Shown here one piece after another: positions 14,625-19,892 of a stretch of DNA of 25,709 bases. A program made the translations under genes and the position numbers. Position 1 is the stretch's first letter, and every line of letters begins with the position of its first letter. Source of the DNA: a virus (taxonomy: Duplodnaviria > Heunggongvirae > Uroviricota > Caudoviricetes); the IMG/VR virus record IMGVR_UViG_2547132488_000024, positions 1 through 25,709 of that record; one strand, 5' to 3'. A model generated the notes under the pieces. It had not been told where the DNA came from. It did not search any database and saw nothing but the letters and a program-made list of their open reading frames with translations.

Positions 14625-14650
14625 CGCGCTTCGCTTGTCTGCTGCTTCGC

Positions 14651-14673
14651 CGGGGCATAAAAAATTTATGCCC
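14651..14673. terminator. Perfect 10-bp stem hairpin GGGGCATAAA-AAA-TTTATGCCCC just downstream of Q; terminator or cos-proximal structure
   Basis: Perfect inverted repeat; no strong T-run. Confidence 0.4.
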
Positions 14674-14960
14674 CGACTCTCCAGCTCCTGTATCAGTCAG
14701 ATAATTTCACGACGCTTTCCTGCTGATTGCCATCATCGACAGTCAGACTCTTACGCAATCCCACCGCGTTGACTGCATGTTCTCGCCGTCTCAGTGCGAT
14801 TTTGACGGCCTTACCTTTCACCCCATTAAATCAAAAGCCCTCACGTCTTTTTCATGCTCAGCGTGAGAAATACGGCCATTCTGTCGTGTCTCTGCGACAT
14901 CGTTCAGGGAATGCTATTTACCCCCTGAAACGCGGGCTGTTCCCCCGTCACCTGCGCGCA

Positions 14961-15078
14961 GAAAAAACGCGTTTTTTTGTGCACGTACGGATCCTTGACG
15001 GATCCAGCCACCACGCGGGCCGGAAGTACAAAAAGTCGTTCAAAAAAATTGTGCAAACTTGTGCACTATCGTGCAAAC
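14961..15078. promoter_or_regulatory. Cluster of phased repeats: 16-bp palindrome AAAAAACGCGTTTTTT (14962-14977), direct repeats ACGGATCC (14987, 14998; 11-bp phase), GTGCAAAC (15051, 15071; 20-bp phase); candidate packaging/cos or operator region
   Basis: Exact repeats read directly; lies between portal gene and accessory genes where P2 has cos. Confidence 0.35.
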
Positions 15079-15102
15079 AAAAAAAGCGCCTTATCGGCGC
15101 TT
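15078..15102 (-). terminator. Intrinsic terminator for the minus-strand 89-aa gene (stem AAGCGCC/GGCGCTT, then T7 on minus strand)
   Basis: Hairpin plus A-run on plus strand directly after the stop at 15111. Confidence 0.6.
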
Positions 15103-15110
15103 CAAAAGTA

Positions 15111-15380
15111 TCAATTGTTGCTGTGTATTAATCGCCAACCACGAACATATGCTTCATAGGCATCTCTGTGCCTTACAGTTCCAGCCTGGCTAAACGGAAT
15201 GTTAGCTAAAACTAAATCATTCTGAGCCATAGCGCGTCCTTCAAGCGCATCTTTTATGCCTAGCTCAAAAGCACAGGCAGCGCATTTGTGCCGACCTTCT
15301 TGTCCTTGATATTCAGGGAGAGACAGAAATGTTGGATTATAACGATGAGGGTTCTTGCAAATACCTGTTTTAGCCCGCAC
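15111..15380 (-). CDS. Hypothetical protein, 89 aa (GTG start; possible internal ATG starts), Cys/His-containing, AT-rich codons; orphan accessory gene
   Basis: ORF with its own downstream terminator; no family recognised. Confidence 0.4.
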   Translation of the reverse strand: MRAKTGICKNPHRYNPTFLSLPEYQGQEGRHKCAACAFELGIKDALEGRAMAQNDLVLANIPFSQAGTVRHRDAYEAYVRGWRLIHSNN

Positions 15381-15403
15381 TTTATTTACCTCATAGGAAA
15401 AAT

Positions 15404-15490
15404 ATGCGTGCCTTTACAGAGGTGCGTGTAAGCAATAAAATATACGACGCACATTTTGATTTACTTCGGAAGGCACGCATATCAGGTTAA
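15404..15490 (+). CDS. Candidate small ORF (28 aa, MRAFTEVRVSNKIYDAHFDLLRKARISG) with RBS AGGA; start and end embedded in a 13-bp perfect inverted repeat; may instead be a structured sRNA
   Basis: RBS spacing 5 nt, followed by strong terminator; IR 15402-15414 / 15470-15482. Confidence 0.25.
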   Translation: MRAFTEVRVSNKIYDAHFDLLRKARISG

Positions 15491-15510
15491 GTGAGTCCGA
15501 CCGAGTTTTA

Positions 15511-15544
15511 CGCCCCAATAGTTGCTGCTATTGGGGCGTTTTGC
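15511..15544 (+). terminator. Rho-independent terminator (11-bp perfect stem CGCCCCAATAG/CTATTGGGGCG, loop TTGCTG, then TTTT)
   Basis: Perfect stem followed by T-run on plus strand. Confidence 0.7.
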
Positions 15545-15744
15545 ATGGACAATGCCGCGCAATTATCTTGTCGCTCACAATGCGAACGATCTTACAAAAA
15601 GGCACATTACTGTCAAGATAATTGATCGTTTTAATCGATAGATAATAGACAATCTATTTGTTTAACAGATCGATTATTGAAGTAAGTGTGCCAGATGGAA
15701 TGATACTGTCTCTATAAACGTGAGCATTTTTCGCGCAGATGCTT

Positions 15745-16056
15745 TTACTCAGGAAATAACGCCCGGATATTCCCAGCCATCTGGCTGGTTATCTTAGCCA
15801 CTGGTGCAGACTGTGCTTCAAACTTTTTTGAGCTGATTTGTGTCACAGGTAATATCTCATCATCAGCCCATGCGGCCAGTCGGTAAGCCTCTGCCGGATT
15901 CGTCTTCAGAAGTGCCAGCCCGGCCAGAAAAGCCACGCGTTGGCCGCTTTTGCGGGCTTCTGGTGTAAGGCTGTCCAGCCAGGCGCATGCTTCTCCTTCG
16001 TTCTTGACGGCAGCTGGCTTCAGATAGAAACTTATTCTTCTGGTTGGTGTCGTCAT
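15745..16056 (-). CDS. parR: ParR-like centromere-binding adaptor, 103 aa (RHH-type N-terminus similar to R1 ParR)
   Basis: Immediately downstream of parM with RBS AAGGAG; ISFYLKP...LDSL...AFLAGLALL resembles R1 ParR from memory. Confidence 0.6.
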   Translation of the reverse strand: MTTPTRRISFYLKPAAVKNEGEACAWLDSLTPEARKSGQRVAFLAGLALLKTNPAEAYRLAAWADDEILPVTQISSKKFEAQSAPVAKITSQMAGNIRALFPE

Positions 16057-16060
16057 TGGT

Positions 16061-17020
16061 TTACTCCTTGTTCATTGCGTACAGCCCATTAACCAGAGCA
16101 AATTGTGGCACCCCGTCCGCGATGAAAGTCGCATTAACTCCGCAGGCTTCGCGGATAGCGGGTGCCACAATCTCCGCCCCGCCACCGACAACCATCACCC
16201 GCCCGTAACCCGAAAAAACCGCCAGAGCGCGGATCACGCGTTGTTTCAGTGTTTCTTCCTTTTCACGAATAATCGCCATCAGGCTGGCGTAATGCGCGTC
16301 ATTGTGGATGTGCTGGCGCAACCAGGCTTCATCATGGCGATGTTCGATAATGGTATTGGCGATGTGGTGACTGGTGCGCATACCGTTAGTGGCCATCACC
16401 GACAGTACGGCATCGGCCATCAGAGAAACGCCTACGTGTGGATCGCAAAACACCTGGCTGATACCTGCCAGTTGCCCCTGAACCTTTGCCACATCCAGCG
16501 TGGTTCCGCCCAAATCCACAATCAGCAGGGATTCAAACGGACTCATGTCAGCCAGTGCCTTAAAGCCAGCCGGAATGGATTCAGGCATAACCCGCACGTT
16601 ACGGATAGTGAATGCTTCGCCGTTCTGGTACTCCACCGGGCGCATAACGTTCGCTTTTTTGCGGTTGATGTTGGCCATGTCCGGCTGTGCGTTTGTGTCG
16701 AAATACTCGCTCAGTGGCAGGGTGACAACCACATCCACCTCCCGTGGCGTGATGCCTGATTTGACCAGCGCGTGATGAATGGCAATGACATTCACATCGC
16801 TGTACTGGTATTGCGTGTCGGTCGTCTGGACAAAGCGATCGCTGACCGGATCAAAACCATAGCGCACGCCATCAAGCATGTAGTTCGCGGGCTGCGTGCC
16901 ACCGAACGGCGCAGACCATTCCGACTTGAAGCTGTTCGGGCTGATGGCGTTGCGGCGTTCGCCGTTCTCAGTCCATGCCAGCTTGATGTTGGTGGAGCCG
17001 TCGTCGATACAAATTCTCAT
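16061..17020 (-). CDS. parM: ParM/StbA-like actin-family partition ATPase, 319 aa
   Basis: IDDGSTNIKLAW, DLGGTTLD and VVGGGAEI phosphate/adenosine motifs; collinear similarity to R1 ParM from memory. Confidence 0.8.
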   Translation of the reverse strand: MRICIDDGSTNIKLAWTENGERRNAISPNSFKSEWSAPFGGTQPANYMLDGVRYGFDPVSDRFVQTTDTQYQYSDVNVIAIHHALVKSGITPREVDVVVTLPLSEYFDTNAQPDMANINRKKANVMRPVEYQNGEAFTIRNVRVMPESIPAGFKALADMSPFESLLIVDLGGTTLDVAKVQGQLAGISQVFCDPHVGVSLMADAVLSVMATNGMRTSHHIANTIIEHRHDEAWLRQHIHNDAHYASLMAIIREKEETLKQRVIRALAVFSGYGRVMVVGGGAEIVAPAIREACGVNATFIADGVPQFALVNGLYAMNKE

Positions 17021-17050
17021 CTCGATTTTCCTTATGTTGATTAATTAATC

Positions 17051-17160
17051 GTTTACGGGATTTTTAAATCCCGTTTTCGCCTGTTTTGTGCGCGCTTCAT
17101 ATATCGCGGCGCGTTTTTTGCTCATTTACGGGATTTGTGAATCCCGTTTCTGTCTGTTTT
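17051..17160. repeat. Two ~40-bp direct repeats 73 bp apart, each with a 20-bp palindrome (ACGGGATTTTTAAATCCCGT at 17055-17074; ACGGGATTTGTGAATCCCGT at 17128-17147); candidate parC-like centromere/operator; second copy lies in the A gene 3' end
   Basis: Exact sequence; first copy sits about 35 bp upstream of parM start over the likely promoter. Confidence 0.55.
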
Positions 17161-19892
17161 TTGTTTCCACTGGTCAGGCTACCCCGCAGCAGGTCTGCTT
17201 TGCGGCGGGCGCGTTCAGTGGTTTCACTGATTCTCTGTGCGTGCTCTGCGTCACGAATGGCGCGCAGCATGTCAGAAAGCACGGTAACGGGGGTTTTCAT
17301 GGTGTTCTGGTCCTGCTGAAGTGTGGATGCCAGGCGTGCGGCGGCTTCGGGGTCTGATGCCCCGAGCTGTGCCAGATAGCTGGCGACCGGGTTATGGCGG
17401 ATCTCCGTGCTGCTTACGCCGTGATTACGGCTCAGGCGCTGCCAGAGCTGCGTGATTCGGCTGTCCGGGCGGGTATCCGGTTTGCGTACAATTTCAAATC
17501 CCTGCGGTGCAATGATGCTGCCGTCAACGTACAGACTGCCGCCCCGTAACAGGTGCTGCATCTGCTGTTCACCGATATGCAGGCCGAGAGATTCAGCAGA
17601 CTCCCGCCATTCTTTAGCGAGTAACTCGTGGTTATCAGGCAAAGGCCGCGGCTGTTTGCGGCTCTGTGTCCAGCTCTGCATTTCATCACTGCTGTTTTTT
17701 ACCTGTTTGTCACGAAGCGAACGCATCAGCGCCCGGCGCTCGTGTCGTTTCAGTGAGCGCATCCATTCATTTACTTCAACGCCGCCAGGGAGCTGTGGCC
17801 ACGGTGCTGGCTGTTCTGTCCCGTTGTTGCCTGTTTCCTGTACGCGGGGACAGTTATTGCCACGAGTCCAAGGGGCGGCAGGGCCGCCCTGAAGGTCAAA
17901 ACCATTTTCGCGGGCGCTGTCTTCCGCTTCCGGTTTACGTTTTACCAGCTTCCAGTTATCCGGATGCGTGCACACACGGGAGGATTCCCCGATGAGTGGT
18001 GACCAGATCCCGTAAATCTGTACGCTCTGTTCGCCGTAATCGTTCAGCTCATCGGCGAGGTCGTAGGCGGTGCGAATCAGGTAGTCTTTACGTGGAACAA
18101 GTACGCCGCCCTGTTTTTCAATGTAGGAGGCAAAACACCCGGCATCGGCGGCAGCGAGTACCGCATCCATTGCGTCATTCTTCAGCCGTTGCGGGCCTTC
18201 CGGGTTGCGTGCCATCTGGCTGGCAAGGCGGCGGAGTTCACGCCACACCTGACGGGAGGGAATGCCAAAGAACTGGAACTGGCGGACCCGGTGAAGGCGC
18301 GCCCAGCCGATGGCGCGTTCCACGCTCTCGGCCATTGATTTTCCTGTTTCGTGGTCAACGCGTGGCTTGCCCGTTTTCGGGTCGATGCCATCCACGGCGC
18401 GGCTGTCCAGGTTCTTTCCGATGTAGGTGGCGATGTAGCTGGTTGGTGTGCCTTTTGAGCCGTCGACATACTCCACCTTAAAGCGTGGGGTAATATCATC
18501 ACCCAGCTCGTGGCGGTCTTCCTGAATGGCAATATCGCGGGTGATGGCCACGATGCTGTCGATTTCTTCCGGATGAGCAAAGACCATCATGTGCCAGTGC
18601 ACGGTGCCGTCATGGTGAGGCTCCACCGTGCGGATGCCATACCAGCGCAGGCCGTCGCGGTTCAGTTTTTTGCGGACCGCCGCAAAAAACGTGTTAACCA
18701 GGTAATCGCTGGAGTCGCGCATAGTGGCCCCGTTCCATTTGGGGTTCGGATGACCGTTCTCTGTTGTGGCGTGGTATTTTGACGGGCAGGTGACAGTCAG
18801 AAACACCGCTTTGTCGCCACGGGCTTCGGCCAGAAGTTCCAGCCCCTTCATGGTGGCCATCATTTCTGCCTTACGGTGAACCGGGTTACTTACTCCCGCG
18901 TAATACACTGTCTCAAGATCAATCGTGAACCCGTCTTCGTTTTCCAGCATGAAACTTTTCAGGAAATCGCGTGTTTTCTCGCGCTGTGCGCGAAACTCGC
19001 TTAACGCGTCCTGGCTCAGATAGGGTGATGTTTTTCTGGAAACCAGACAGGCGGCGCGGAGTTGTTCTTCTCTCCACTCGCAACGTAACAGCCACAGTTT
19101 GCGTTTCCACCAGTCCGCACAGGTCAGGCGAAGGATTGCGCCCGGTAACAGTTCCGTATCCGGATCGCTCTTGTTCAGAGCTTCGTAATATGGCGGCATG
19201 GCGTGCAGGTGTAACGCCATGCGGGCCAGCATCTGATACGCCTTCAGCGTTACATCCATGGTCAGTTCGCCATCGGTCGCGCCAAAGCCATCGCAGAGTT
19301 TTTCGAAGGTGCTGCTGAACATCGCCGCCGTCATGGTGGCCAGCGTCTGTATCTGGTGTTTGTTGAGCTGCGGCAGGTAAAGCAAATCGTCCAGGCGTTC
19401 GCGTCCGGCAAGGGAGCGATAACCCGGTGTCAGCCAGCGCCCGTCAGTGCGATCCAGACGTTCGAATATTTTGCGCAGGGTTCCGCGTGCATAGCGTTCT
19501 GCCTGCCAGCTCTTTTTGCCTTTCCGGCGATCGGCTTCCTGTTTTTTGCGCAGGAAAGAGAGGTGGCGAATAAGCGGATCGCGCAGATAGGACGGCAGCA
19601 GGCGCAGCGAGGCCATGGCTTCATCCACCGCGCCGCGTGCCTGTTTTTTGGCGTCTCCTGCCAGTGTGATGGTTTTGTCCTGTTTTTCCTGTGCGTCCAG
19701 GCTTTTATTAATCAGGTTGCCCAGCGGCGTGGCGGAGAACGCCGCATCAGCCATTTCCTGGCGGCGCTCGTTCTCTATCCGGTAGGCACCCAGCCAGGAG
19801 GAAAGCGCGGATTCAGGAGCGGGGATCCCCGTTCCTTCACGCCCCACTGCGTGGCGCGGTTGTTGCCAGTCCCTGATGTACTCTGCCGTCAT
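17097..19892 (-). CDS. A: Rolling-circle replication initiator (P2 gpA-like), HUH motif HWHMMVFAH and catalytic tyrosine pair YIATYIGK; 931 aa from first ATG, longer than P2 A
   Basis: HUH and Y-x3-Y motifs; synteny. Confidence 0.85.
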   Translation of the reverse strand: MTAEYIRDWQQPRHAVGREGTGIPAPESALSSWLGAYRIENERRQEMADAAFSATPLGNLINKSLDAQEKQDKTITLAGDAKKQARGAVDEAMASLRLLPSYLRDPLIRHLSFLRKKQEADRRKGKKSWQAERYARGTLRKIFERLDRTDGRWLTPGYRSLAGRERLDDLLYLPQLNKHQIQTLATMTAAMFSSTFEKLCDGFGATDGELTMDVTLKAYQMLARMALHLHAMPPYYEALNKSDPDTELLPGAILRLTCADWWKRKLWLLRCEWREEQLRAACLVSRKTSPYLSQDALSEFRAQREKTRDFLKSFMLENEDGFTIDLETVYYAGVSNPVHRKAEMMATMKGLELLAEARGDKAVFLTVTCPSKYHATTENGHPNPKWNGATMRDSSDYLVNTFFAAVRKKLNRDGLRWYGIRTVEPHHDGTVHWHMMVFAHPEEIDSIVAITRDIAIQEDRHELGDDITPRFKVEYVDGSKGTPTSYIATYIGKNLDSRAVDGIDPKTGKPRVDHETGKSMAESVERAIGWARLHRVRQFQFFGIPSRQVWRELRRLASQMARNPEGPQRLKNDAMDAVLAAADAGCFASYIEKQGGVLVPRKDYLIRTAYDLADELNDYGEQSVQIYGIWSPLIGESSRVCTHPDNWKLVKRKPEAEDSARENGFDLQGGPAAPWTRGNNCPRVQETGNNGTEQPAPWPQLPGGVEVNEWMRSLKRHERRALMRSLRDKQVKNSSDEMQSWTQSRKQPRPLPDNHELLAKEWRESAESLGLHIGEQQMQHLLRGGSLYVDGSIIAPQGFEIVRKPDTRPDSRITQLWQRLSRNHGVSSTEIRHNPVASYLAQLGASDPEAAARLASTLQQDQNTMKTPVTVLSDMLRAIRDAEHAQRISETTERARRKADLLRGSLTSGNKKQTETGFTNPVNEQKTRRDI

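What the first reader, a model, noticed from the sequence alone, without database searches (positions are those of the whole stretch)
15745..17160. Actin-type ParM/ParR-like module with palindromic parC-like repeats in the cos-to-A accessory slot
In P2 the slot between cos and gene A carries old/tin exclusion cargo. Here it holds a parM-like actin ATPase with intact phosphate and adenosine motifs, a parR-like small gene coupled by an AAGGAG RBS, and two ~40-bp direct repeats each with a 20-bp palindrome. The first repeat overlies the likely parM promoter, as parC does in plasmid R1. A plasmid-type segrosome in an integrase-bearing P2-like prophage is unusual. It could mean episomal maintenance, or an actin-like module co-opted for another role such as exclusion.
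Basis: partly seen in the sequence, partly recalled or inferred. Interest (0 to 1): 0.7.

Follow-up and report, generated by a model that had tools for sequence, protein, structure and literature searches.

The report
ParMRC partition cassette in P88-like prophage
This is a real plasmid-type (actin-like) DNA-segregation cassette, but it is a fixed, already annotated and already published feature of a very common family of P2-like E. coli prophages, and what it does for an integrating phage has never been tested.

Summary
On the minus strand the window has parM (16061-17020; Pfam StbA_N 1.7e-81; E 1e-92 to plasmid R1 ParM structures). parR follows 4 nt downstream (15745-16056; Plasmid_stab_B 7.8e-24; its profile hits the pB171 ParR structure at 1e-15). 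Upstream lie two 42-nt repeats, each with a 20-bp palindrome, 73 bp apart.

It is not unusual and it is not swappable cargo. The window is a P88-like (Xuanwuvirus) prophage. At least 80% of the module occurs in 1278 of 5426 complete E. coli genomes, where RefSeq already annotates it as ParM/partition protein. Rousset et al. 2022 already reported that about a quarter of P2-like phages carry a putative partition system here.

New here:
- gpA-parM-parR synteny persists down to 53% ParM identity (Hafnia, Plesiomonas, Serratia, Enterobacter).
- parM and the DNA-binding and C-terminal parts of parR are under purifying selection.
- Paired GGG-N10-CCC sites recur at the same positions in three genera.
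- The truly variable slot lies downstream of parR.

Most likely the cassette partitions the extrachromosomal phage circle before integration or after excision, as SrpMRC does for SXT/R391 elements. This is inferred, not shown. Novelty: already known. Interest: low to moderate.

The parts
17122..17163 (-). parC-like repeat 1 (42 nt), with palindrome ACGGGATTCACAAATCCCGT at 17128-17147. It lies inside the last codons of gene A.
   Evidence: Direct-repeat family D1 and inverted repeat I2. The pattern is unique to these two sites in the window. A GGG-N10-CCC site sits at the equivalent position (-125 to -131 from the parM ATG) in E. coli, Plesiomonas and Hafnia relatives.
17049..17090 (-). parC-like repeat 2 (42 nt), with palindrome ACGGGATTTAAAAATCCCGT at 17055-17074. 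It ends 34 nt before the parM ATG.
   Evidence: A GGG-N10-CCC site sits at -52 to -59 in three genera, always 72-73 bp from site 1.
17021..17048 (-). parM leader with a conserved TTAATCAA...AAGGA Shine-Dalgarno region. Any dedicated promoter would have to overlap repeat 2.
   Evidence: Sequence. The same motif appears in Plesiomonas and Hafnia. This stretch varies least of the non-coding parts within the clade. No consensus promoter was detected.
16061..17020 (-). parM, the actin-fold segregation ATPase (319 aa).
   Evidence: Pfam PF06406 1.7e-81 and PF21523 1.7e-68. E 1.2e-92 to R1 ParM structures, with nucleotide-binding motifs intact. 46.5% identical to an R1-type plasmid ParM. dN/dS 0.06-0.25. 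Intact in 80 of 80 IMG/VR relatives.
15745..16056 (-). parR, the centromere-binding adaptor (103 aa). It has an N-terminal ribbon-helix-helix domain, a hypervariable linker and a conserved C-terminal tail ...NIRALFPE.
   Evidence: Pfam PF10784 7.8e-24. The ParR profile hits the pB171 ParR/StbB structure 2jd3 at 1.2e-15. dN/dS is 0.03-0.14 in codons 1-66, about 1 in the linker and about 0 in the tail. The tail aligns with the R1-type ParR tail ...KKNAMKLIN.
17097..19892 (-). Gene A (rolling-circle replication initiator, 931 aa), immediately upstream. Its 3' end carries repeat 1. No terminator-like site on the sense strand separates it from parM.
   Evidence: Pfam PF05840 2.6e-129. Terminator scan. 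gpA-parM-parR synteny in other genera.
14625..15744 (.). The truly variable segment between parR and the portal gene. It is context, not part of the partition cassette. Here it is low in G+C and holds one 89-aa ORF of unknown function (15111-15380, -).
   Evidence: G+C of 40-46% against 54-56% for parMR. The interval length is 990-4173 bp in 55 relatives, and the ORF has a homologue in only 9 of 80. PHROG 3941, unknown function.

Best explanation
This is a complete R1-family type II (ParMRC) DNA-partition cassette. It is a fixed backbone module of P88-like (Xuanwuvirus) prophages and of a wider group of P2-like prophages of Enterobacterales. It is not swappable cargo.

Proposed mechanism:
- ParR dimers bind the two GGGATT-N4-AATCCC palindromes through the N-terminal ribbon-helix-helix domain.
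- The conserved ParR C-terminal tail captures the growing ends of ATP-ParM filaments.
- A filament bundle spanning two ParR/parC complexes pushes two phage DNA circles apart.

Almost all copies are integrated and carry an integrase. The substrate is therefore most likely the transient extrachromosomal circle. That circle exists after infection and early gene-A-driven replication but before integration, or after excision. Partition would let both daughter cells inherit a copy, so lysogeny would be established or kept more reliably. This is what SrpMRC does for excised SXT/R391 elements.

parMR sits directly downstream of gene A with no terminator-like site and no recognisable promoter of its own. 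It is therefore probably expressed with the early replication operon.

Shown here: homology, intact motifs, selection, synteny and conserved sites. Inferred: ParR binding to the palindromes, filament-driven segregation, the substrate and the timing.
For: - Homology and intact motifs.
- ParR has both functional ends under strong constraint and a neutral linker.
- parM dN/dS is 0.06-0.25.
- 80 of 80 relatives have an intact parM and 77 of 78 a full-length parR.
- gpA-parM-parR-[cargo]-portal synteny holds in Plesiomonas (62% ParM identity), Hafnia (61%), Serratia (58%) and Enterobacter (53%). These ParMs cluster apart from plasmid ParMs in a neighbour-joining tree.
- Two GGG-N10-CCC sites lie 72-73 bp apart at the same distance from the ATG in E. 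coli, Plesiomonas and Hafnia, although the spacer sequences differ.
- The two lineages whose ParR beta-strand reads RKISFY instead of RR(I/V)SFY carry a different inverted repeat, AGAAAAAT.
- The half-site AAATCCCG resembles the R1-type iteron AAACCCA.
- No terminator-like site on the sense strand and no consensus promoter between gene A and parM.
- Precedent in an integrative element: SrpMRC of SXT/R391 (PMC4489591).
Against: - No experiment exists for this cassette.
- Only two palindromes (four half-sites) are present, against ten iterons in R1-type parC. Whether that is enough to build a segrosome is unknown.
- Within the P88-like clade the palindromes are no more conserved than their flanks.
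- A single non-replicating circle needs no partition, so the benefit depends on replication before integration, which was not shown.
- Expression timing is inferred from the absence of signals only.
- Episomal copies are very rare in assemblies (2 of 1452 places).
Confidence: 0.55

Rival explanations
1. AlpAC-like role in lytic development. The ParM filaments and the ParR adaptor move or position the excised or infecting phage circles so that they replicate efficiently. This is what the actin-like AlpC and its adaptor AlpA do for the Corynebacterium prophage CGP3. On this reading the payoff is replication or burst, not inheritance.
For: parMR lies directly downstream of the replication initiator gene A, with no intervening terminator-like site and no promoter of its own. 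That suggests co-expression with early lytic genes. CGP3 AlpAC is an experimentally supported precedent: an integrated prophage, an adaptor that binds upstream of the operon, early induction, and a requirement for efficient replication (PMC4446434). From memory, P2-type phages replicate to monomeric circles, which are discrete objects that filaments could move.
Against: The proteins are close relatives of true plasmid-segregation ParM/ParR (46.5% and 34% identity to the R1 type), not of AlpC. There are no expression or localisation data. The classical P2 phage manages without such a system.
Confidence: 0.2
2. Facultative plasmid prophage. P88-like phages can persist for many generations as low-copy plasmids instead of integrating, and ParMRC is their plasmid-maintenance function. 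This is the suggestion made by Rousset et al.
For: One PLSDB record (NZ_CP148288.1, 34,461 bp, circular) is an entire P88-like genome deposited as a plasmid. Rousset et al. raise the idea. The P1-like plasmid prophage D6 uses a 48%-identical ParM/StbA.
Against: There are 1450 chromosomal places against 2 plasmid places in complete E. coli genomes. Of the loci whose lysogeny region was seen (the window, P88, the Plesiomonas relative and the circular 'plasmid' record), all carry an integrase. No theta-type plasmid replicon is present, only rolling-circle gene A. The circular record could simply reflect spontaneous induction. I could not check whether the chromosome of that strain also holds the prophage.
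Confidence: 0.12
3. Exclusion or incompatibility function. The cassette harms superinfecting phages or plasmids that carry a similar centromere, or it is an actin-like defence module in the old/tin slot.
For: The locus neighbours the known P2 defence hotspot.
Against: Neither protein hits PADLOC. The cassette is invariant rather than swapped among relatives. It is co-inherited with gene A across genera. Its G+C matches the backbone.
Confidence: 0.05
4. Decaying relic of an old plasmid-phage recombination with no present function, or only ParR retained as a transcription factor.
For: The cassette survives in a degraded prophage remnant in O157:H7 EDL933. The palindromes are not especially conserved within the clade.
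Against: Purifying selection acts on parM and on both functional ends of parR. 80 of 80 relatives have an intact parM. Synteny holds at 53-62% protein identity. The ATPase motifs are intact.
Confidence: 0.04

Closest known systems
ParMRC (StbA/StbB) type II partition system of plasmid R1 and other IncF-type plasmids
   Same: The parC-parM-parR gene order is the same. ParM is 46.5% identical over 318 aa with identical nucleotide-binding motifs. ParR is 34% identical over the N-terminal ribbon-helix-helix domain, and the C-terminal tails are alike. The half-site AAATCCCG resembles the iteron AAACCCA.
   Different: The host replicon is an integrating P2-like prophage, not a low-copy plasmid. parC is two 20-bp palindromes 73 bp apart, one of them inside gene A. 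R1-type parC has two blocks of 11-bp direct iterons around a consensus promoter. No recognisable promoter of its own was found. These ParMs form a separate clade that is at most about 52% identical to any plasmid ParM.
SrpMRC of SXT/R391 integrative conjugative elements (Carraro et al. 2015, PMC4489591)
   Same: Both are type II partition cassettes in an element that is normally integrated, carries an integrase and replicates by a rolling-circle initiator when excised. Both have only a few direct and inverted repeats as the centromere (four 13-bp repeats in srpC). SrpMRC was shown to reduce loss of the excised element.
   Different: SrpM and SrpR are only distantly related to R1 ParM/ParR, whereas the phage proteins are clear R1-family members. 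The host element is a conjugative element, not a phage. srpMR expression is known to depend on the SetCD activator. Regulation here is unknown.
AlpAC of Corynebacterium glutamicum prophage CGP3 (Donovan et al. 2015, PMC4446434)
   Same: Both are in an integrated prophage and encode an actin-like filament former plus an adaptor that binds sites upstream of the operon.
   Different: AlpC belongs to a different actin-like family and the gene order differs. Its shown role is efficient replication or transport of induced phage DNA rather than segregation. The host is an actinobacterium.
ParM/StbA-StbB of the P1-like plasmid prophage D6
   Same: It is a phage-borne ParM (48% identical) with a downstream StbB-type ParR.
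   Different: From memory, D6 is maintained as a plasmid and does not integrate. Its upstream repeats (TCTCAAAnnnnnCTCA) are unrelated to the palindromes here.
The putative plasmid partitioning system that Rousset et al. 2022 (PMC9122126) reported between gpA and gpQ of E. coli P2-like phages
   Same: Most probably the same cassette at the same locus. They report it in about a quarter of P2-like phages and suggest plasmid-like maintenance. I did not check their protein clusters against this sequence.
   Different: They listed it among hotspot contents. The evidence here shows that it is a conserved module on the gene-A side of the hotspot, not one of the swapped cargoes.

Membership tests
Type II ParMRC partition system (R1 type) | Actin-fold ATPase ParM with intact phosphate-1, phosphate-2 and adenosine motifs | tested here: met
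   PF06406 1.7e-81 and PF21523 1.7e-68. E 1.2e-92 to 1mwk, with DDGSTNIK, MPESIPAG, DLGGTTLD and GGGAE conserved.
Type II ParMRC partition system (R1 type) | Small ParR gene immediately downstream of parM, with an N-terminal ribbon-helix-helix DNA-binding domain | tested here: met
   4-nt gap between the genes, with the Shine-Dalgarno sequence inside the parM 3' end. PF10784 7.8e-24. The profile hits the pB171 ParR structure 2jd3 at 1.2e-15.
Type II ParMRC partition system (R1 type) | ParR C-terminal tail that binds ParM | tested here: inconclusive
   A conserved C-terminal motif (K/R)N(I/A)xxLFP aligns with the R1-type tail KKNAMKLIN and has dN/dS of about 0. Binding itself cannot be tested here.
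Type II ParMRC partition system (R1 type) | cis-acting parC: an array of ParR-binding repeats upstream of parM that embraces the promoter | tested here: inconclusive
   Two palindromic repeats are present upstream, and their position is conserved in three genera. There are only four half-sites, one repeat lies inside gene A, and no consensus promoter was found. R1-type parC has two blocks of tandem 11-bp iterons around a TTGACA promoter.
Type II ParMRC partition system (R1 type) | Stabilises a low-copy extrachromosomal replicon | not testable with these tools
   This needs a plasmid-stabilisation assay. Copies are almost always chromosomal: 1450 places against 2 on plasmids.
P2 old/tin-type hotspot cargo (anti-phage defence) | Variable presence among otherwise similar phages | tested here: not met
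   80 of 80 P88-like IMG/VR loci carry an intact parM, while the interval downstream of parR varies from 990 to 4173 bp. The cassette is syntenic with gene A in other genera.
P2 old/tin-type hotspot cargo (anti-phage defence) | Similarity to known defence proteins | tested here: not met
   No PADLOC hit for ParM, ParR or the 89-aa ORF.
Phage-plasmids (P1, D6, N15 type) | Maintained extrachromosomally, with no integrase and a plasmid-type replicon | tested here: not met
   The prophage is integrated next to pheA and has an integrase. Copies are chromosomal in 1450 of 1452 places. The only replication gene is rolling-circle gpA.
Partition systems of integrative elements (SrpMRC-like, by function) | ParM-like ATPase, small DNA-binding adaptor and upstream repeats, in an element with an integrase and a rolling-circle initiator | tested here: met
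   Compare the description of srpMRC.
Partition systems of integrative elements (SrpMRC-like, by function) | Expression coupled to the excised, replicating state, and a measurable reduction in loss of the element | not testable with these tools
   The only indirect evidence is that no terminator-like site and no promoter lie between gene A and parM.

The most novel reading that the evidence does not exclude
The cassette is expressed with the early replication operon and gives an E. coli myovirus a cytoskeletal step. ParM filaments would separate or position gene-A-generated monomeric circles during the lysis-lysogeny window or during lytic growth. They would measurably raise lysogenisation frequency, prophage retention or replication efficiency. 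A quarter of E. coli strains would then carry a working actin-like machine whose real client is a phage genome, built on a minimal two-palindrome centromere.
Probability: 0.3. Interest if true: 0.6.

Novelty: already known. Interest (0 to 1): 0.3.

Why it matters
As an observation it adds little. The genes are already named in RefSeq and the cassette was noted in print in 2022.

The open point is functional. Why does a phage lineage that integrates, and that is present in about 24% of complete E. coli genomes including O157:H7 EDL933 and ST131 strains, keep a complete plasmid-segregation machine under purifying selection across several genera?

A simple set of deletion and stabilisation experiments in P88 or phiSM would show whether temperate phages use active partition during the unintegrated phase. 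That would extend to phages the blurring of the line between integrative elements and plasmids already seen with SXT/R391.

The analysis also refines the map of the P2 defence hotspot. In this lineage its left border is parR, not gene A.

Tried and rejected
- The scan of genome contigs with the single ParM protein returned only 3 near-identical loci, so it could not show diversity.
- The viral-contig scan with a ParM alignment was filled by relatives 98-100% identical. That was useful for counting intact copies but not for deep comparison.
- Diverse contexts had to come from the look-up of encoding contigs instead.
- The sigma-70 scan found no promoter at the repeats. By eye, candidate -10 hexamers near TTAATTAAT lack the key A2 and T6 positions, so I make no promoter claim.
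- Folding the repeat region as RNA gave a stable structure (z = -3.85). That follows trivially from two similar palindromes. In Plesiomonas the site has only 4-bp arms, which favours a protein-binding site over a hairpin.
- Within-clade conservation did not set the palindromes apart from their flanks.
- I tried to test whether the strain with the circular 34.4-kb 'plasmid' copy also has a chromosomal copy. That assembly does not appear among the best hits of the E. coli collection, so the test failed.
- The P2 cos sequence recalled from memory was not found, so cos is not mapped.
- Rfam gave only sub-threshold hits in the variable region.
- Literature searches for ParM or StbA in P2-like, P88 or Peduoviridae phages found no functional study.
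- Defence function: rejected. Recent plasmid-to-phage transfer: rejected, because identity drops from at least 91% within the clade to at most about 62% outside it, the best plasmid ParM being about 52% identical, and G+C matches the backbone.
Full report
**What is there**

On the minus strand the window holds three genes in a row. The first is a 931-aa gene A homologue (17097-19892; Pfam Phage_GPA 2.6e-129). Next comes a 319-aa ORF (16061-17020), then a 103-aa ORF (15745-16056) that starts 4 nt after the previous stop, with AAGGAG inside the last codons of the upstream gene.

The 319-aa protein matches both Pfam ParM domains (StbA_N 1.7e-81; ParM C-terminal 1.7e-68). It aligns over its whole length with the solved plasmid R1 ParM (1mwk, E 1.2e-92). 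DDGSTNIK, MPESIPAG, DLGGTTLD and GGGAE are preserved.

The 103-aa protein matches Plasmid_stab_B (7.8e-24). A profile of it and its relatives hits the solved pB171 ParR/StbB (2jd3) at 1.2e-15.

Upstream of parM are two 42-nt direct repeats (17049-17090 and 17122-17163), 83% identical and 73 bp apart. Each holds a 20-bp palindrome ACGGGATTnnnnAATCCCGT. With up to 3 mismatches the pattern occurs nowhere else in the window. Shuffles give a mean of 0.17 matches, and none of 100 reaches 2.

**What the element is**

The window is 100% identical to a prophage integrated next to pheA in E. coli MINF_1A. It is 95-97% identical to Escherichia phage P88, Citrobacter phage phiSM and other Xuanwuvirus members of the Peduoviridae.

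RefSeq already annotates the two genes as 'plasmid segregation protein ParM' and 'plasmid partitioning/stability family protein'. PHROGs has 'partition protein' families for both. At least 80% of the module is present in 1278 of 5426 complete E. coli genomes, at 1450 chromosomal places and 2 plasmid places. One of these genomes is O157:H7 EDL933, where the cassette survives in a degraded prophage.

Rousset et al. 2022 surveyed exactly this gpA-gpQ interval. [quoted passage not shown] The phiSM paper lists the gene only as a 'fitness' factor. I found no functional study.

**It is backbone, not cargo**

All 80 P88-like IMG/VR loci have an intact 319-aa parM, and 77 of 78 have a full-length parR. 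The distance from parR to the portal gene varies from 990 to 4173 bp in 55 loci. The 89-aa ORF that fills this space in the window has a homologue in only 9 of 80. G+C is 54-56% across parMR, like the phage backbone, but 40-46% at 15000-15750.

ParM relatives of intermediate identity sit in the same gpA-parM-parR-[cargo]-portal arrangement in four other genera:
- Plesiomonas, 62% identity
- Hafnia, 61%
- Serratia, 58%
- Enterobacter, 53%

In a neighbour-joining tree these P2-context ParMs group together, apart from the plasmid ParMs. The best plasmid ParM is only about 52% identical, and that of the plasmid prophage D6 is 48% identical. More distant relatives sit in a Dickeya conjugative element and in an integrated plasmid. 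The cassette was therefore acquired long ago and has been inherited with the phage replication module.

**It is kept functional**

- parM has dN/dS of 0.06-0.25 against six relatives.
- parR is mosaic. The N-terminal DNA-binding domain (codons 1-66) has dN/dS of 0.03-0.14. The linker (67-90) is about 1, and 39 distinct ParR sequences occur among 78 loci. The C-terminal tail is about 0.
- The tail motif (K/R)N(I/A)xxLFP aligns with the tail of an R1-type ParR (...KKNAMKLIN) read from an IncF plasmid. From memory, that is the part of R1 ParR that binds ParM.

Both the DNA-binding end and the presumed ParM-binding end of the adaptor are therefore under constraint.

**The repeats**

The strongest evidence that they are functional is comparative. 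E. coli-type loci, Plesiomonas and Hafnia each have exactly two GGG-N10-CCC sites in the 230 nt upstream of parM. The positions are -125/-52, -131/-59 and -128/-55, so the two sites are always 72-73 bp apart. The ten central bases differ between genera and are not even self-complementary in Plesiomonas. That pattern fits a protein-binding site better than an RNA hairpin.

Serratia and Enterobacter lack this site and share a different inverted repeat, AGAAAAAT. Their ParR beta-strand reads RKISFY instead of RR(I/V)SFY. This is suggestive co-variation from a small sample.

The half-site AAATCCCG resembles the iteron AAACCCA of an R1-type parC. The architectures differ, however. R1-type parC has two blocks of tandem 11-bp iterons flanking a TTGACA promoter. 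The phage has four half-sites arranged as two palindromes.

Within the P88-like clade the palindromes are not more conserved than their flanks. Variation falls in the central four bases and spares the GGGAT and ATCCC cores.

The upstream repeat lies inside the last codons of gene A, whose stop codon is at 17097-17099. No sigma-70 consensus promoter was detected at either repeat. No terminator-like site on the sense strand lies between gene A and parM. The downstream repeat ends 34 nt before the ATG, so a dedicated promoter would have to overlap it, but none is recognisable. Read-through from the early (gene A) operon is therefore at least as likely as R1-style autoregulated transcription. That is inference.

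**Mechanism**

The parts list is that of a working segrosome, so I take the R1 mechanism as the default:
- ParR binds the palindromes.
- The ParR tail caps ATP-ParM filaments.
- The filaments push two centromere-bearing DNA molecules apart.

The client cannot usually be a stable plasmid. Copies are chromosomal in 1450 of 1452 places, an integrase is present in the window and in the three relatives whose lysogeny region was seen, and gene A is a rolling-circle initiator. The most likely client is the transient circular phage genome, either after infection and early replication but before integration, or after excision.

This matches SrpMRC of SXT/R391 elements. That cassette has four short repeats as its centromere and reduces loss of the excised, rolling-circle-replicating element. 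I give this reading 0.55.

The main rival (0.2) is the AlpAC model from prophage CGP3. There an actin-like protein and its adaptor are early-induced and are needed for efficient replication of the excised phage DNA.

A true facultative plasmid lifestyle (0.12) has one circular 34.4-kb 'plasmid' record in its favour. It is otherwise contradicted by the distribution of copies.

Exclusion (0.05) has no support. A relic (0.04) is contradicted by the selection data.

**Verdict**

The claims of unusualness, of cargo status and of promoter overlap are not supported. The feature is already annotated and published as an observation.

The value added here is fourfold:
- the cassette is a conserved lineage module;
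- all functional parts are under selection;
- its putative centromere is a minimal, position-conserved pair of palindromes;
- the defence hotspot of this lineage starts after parR.

The biological role remains an open and easily testable question.

Noticed in passing
window 15083-15616: The low-G+C variable segment holds an 89-aa ORF (15111-15380, -; PHROG 3941, unknown function; no Pfam, NCBIfam or PADLOC hit). A promoter-like site lies about 200 nt upstream on the minus strand (15616-15589, TTGACA-16-TAAGAT). A terminator-like hairpin follows the ORF (15103-15083). RefSeq leaves the whole 1.1-kb interval unannotated in MINF_1A. A homologue is present in only 9 of 80 P88-like relatives.
   Followed up: partly
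window 15413-15545 (+): A promoter-like site (TTTACA-17-TAAAAT, 15413-15441) is followed about 70 nt later by a perfect 12-bp hairpin (15510-15539) and then TTTT. Together they would give a roughly 100-nt transcript antisense to the long 5' leader of the 89-aa ORF. Rfam gives only sub-threshold hits to antisense-RNA families (ctRNA_pGA1 at E 0.23, sar at E 0.32), and these cover only the hairpin. This may be an antisense-regulated cargo gene.
   Followed up: partly
window 15745-16056 (parR codons 67-90) and L021-L100: The ParR linker is hypervariable: 39 distinct ParR proteins among 78 loci, with dN/dS of about 1. Several clearly different linker and C-half alleles (window/P88 type, EDL933 type, E. 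albertii type) sit next to ParMs that are 97-99% identical and next to the same palindromes. Recombination breakpoints seem to fall inside parR, around codon 18 in many E. coli genomes.
   Followed up: partly
window 17091-17121: Between the two repeats, around the gene A stop codon, a GC-rich inverted repeat (CGCGC...GCGCG) shows an apparent compensatory change in phage 520873 (CGTGC...GCACG). It could be a small hairpin or another binding site at the gene A/parM junction.
   Followed up: no
L006 (NZ_JBQPOM010000071.1): A contig labelled Vagococcus sp. WN89Y (a Gram-positive genus) carries a P88-like prophage region with a ParM 97% identical to the one in the window. This probably reflects a contaminated or mislabelled assembly.
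   Followed up: no
L013 and L014: More distant ParM/ParR pairs (48-50% identity) sit in a chromosomal conjugative element of Dickeya (integrase, TraG, TraU) and in an integrated plasmid of Mangrovibacter (Rep3, ParAB). R1-family parMR cassettes therefore occur in several kinds of integrated elements, not only in these phages.
   Followed up: no
L011 7450-8084; L012 7411-8757; L015 7506-8216: The slot just downstream of parR carries different cargo in different relatives: HicAB toxin-antitoxin (Serratia), a KAP-family NTPase (Enterobacter) and a DUF3800 protein (E. coli). This fits a defence/accessory hotspot that begins after parR.
   Followed up: no
L020 (E. coli O157:H7 EDL933, NZ_CP008957.1 2693864-2698041): In EDL933 the P2-like prophage is truncated just after parR by an IS3-family element, yet gene A, parM and parR remain intact ORFs.
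   Followed up: no
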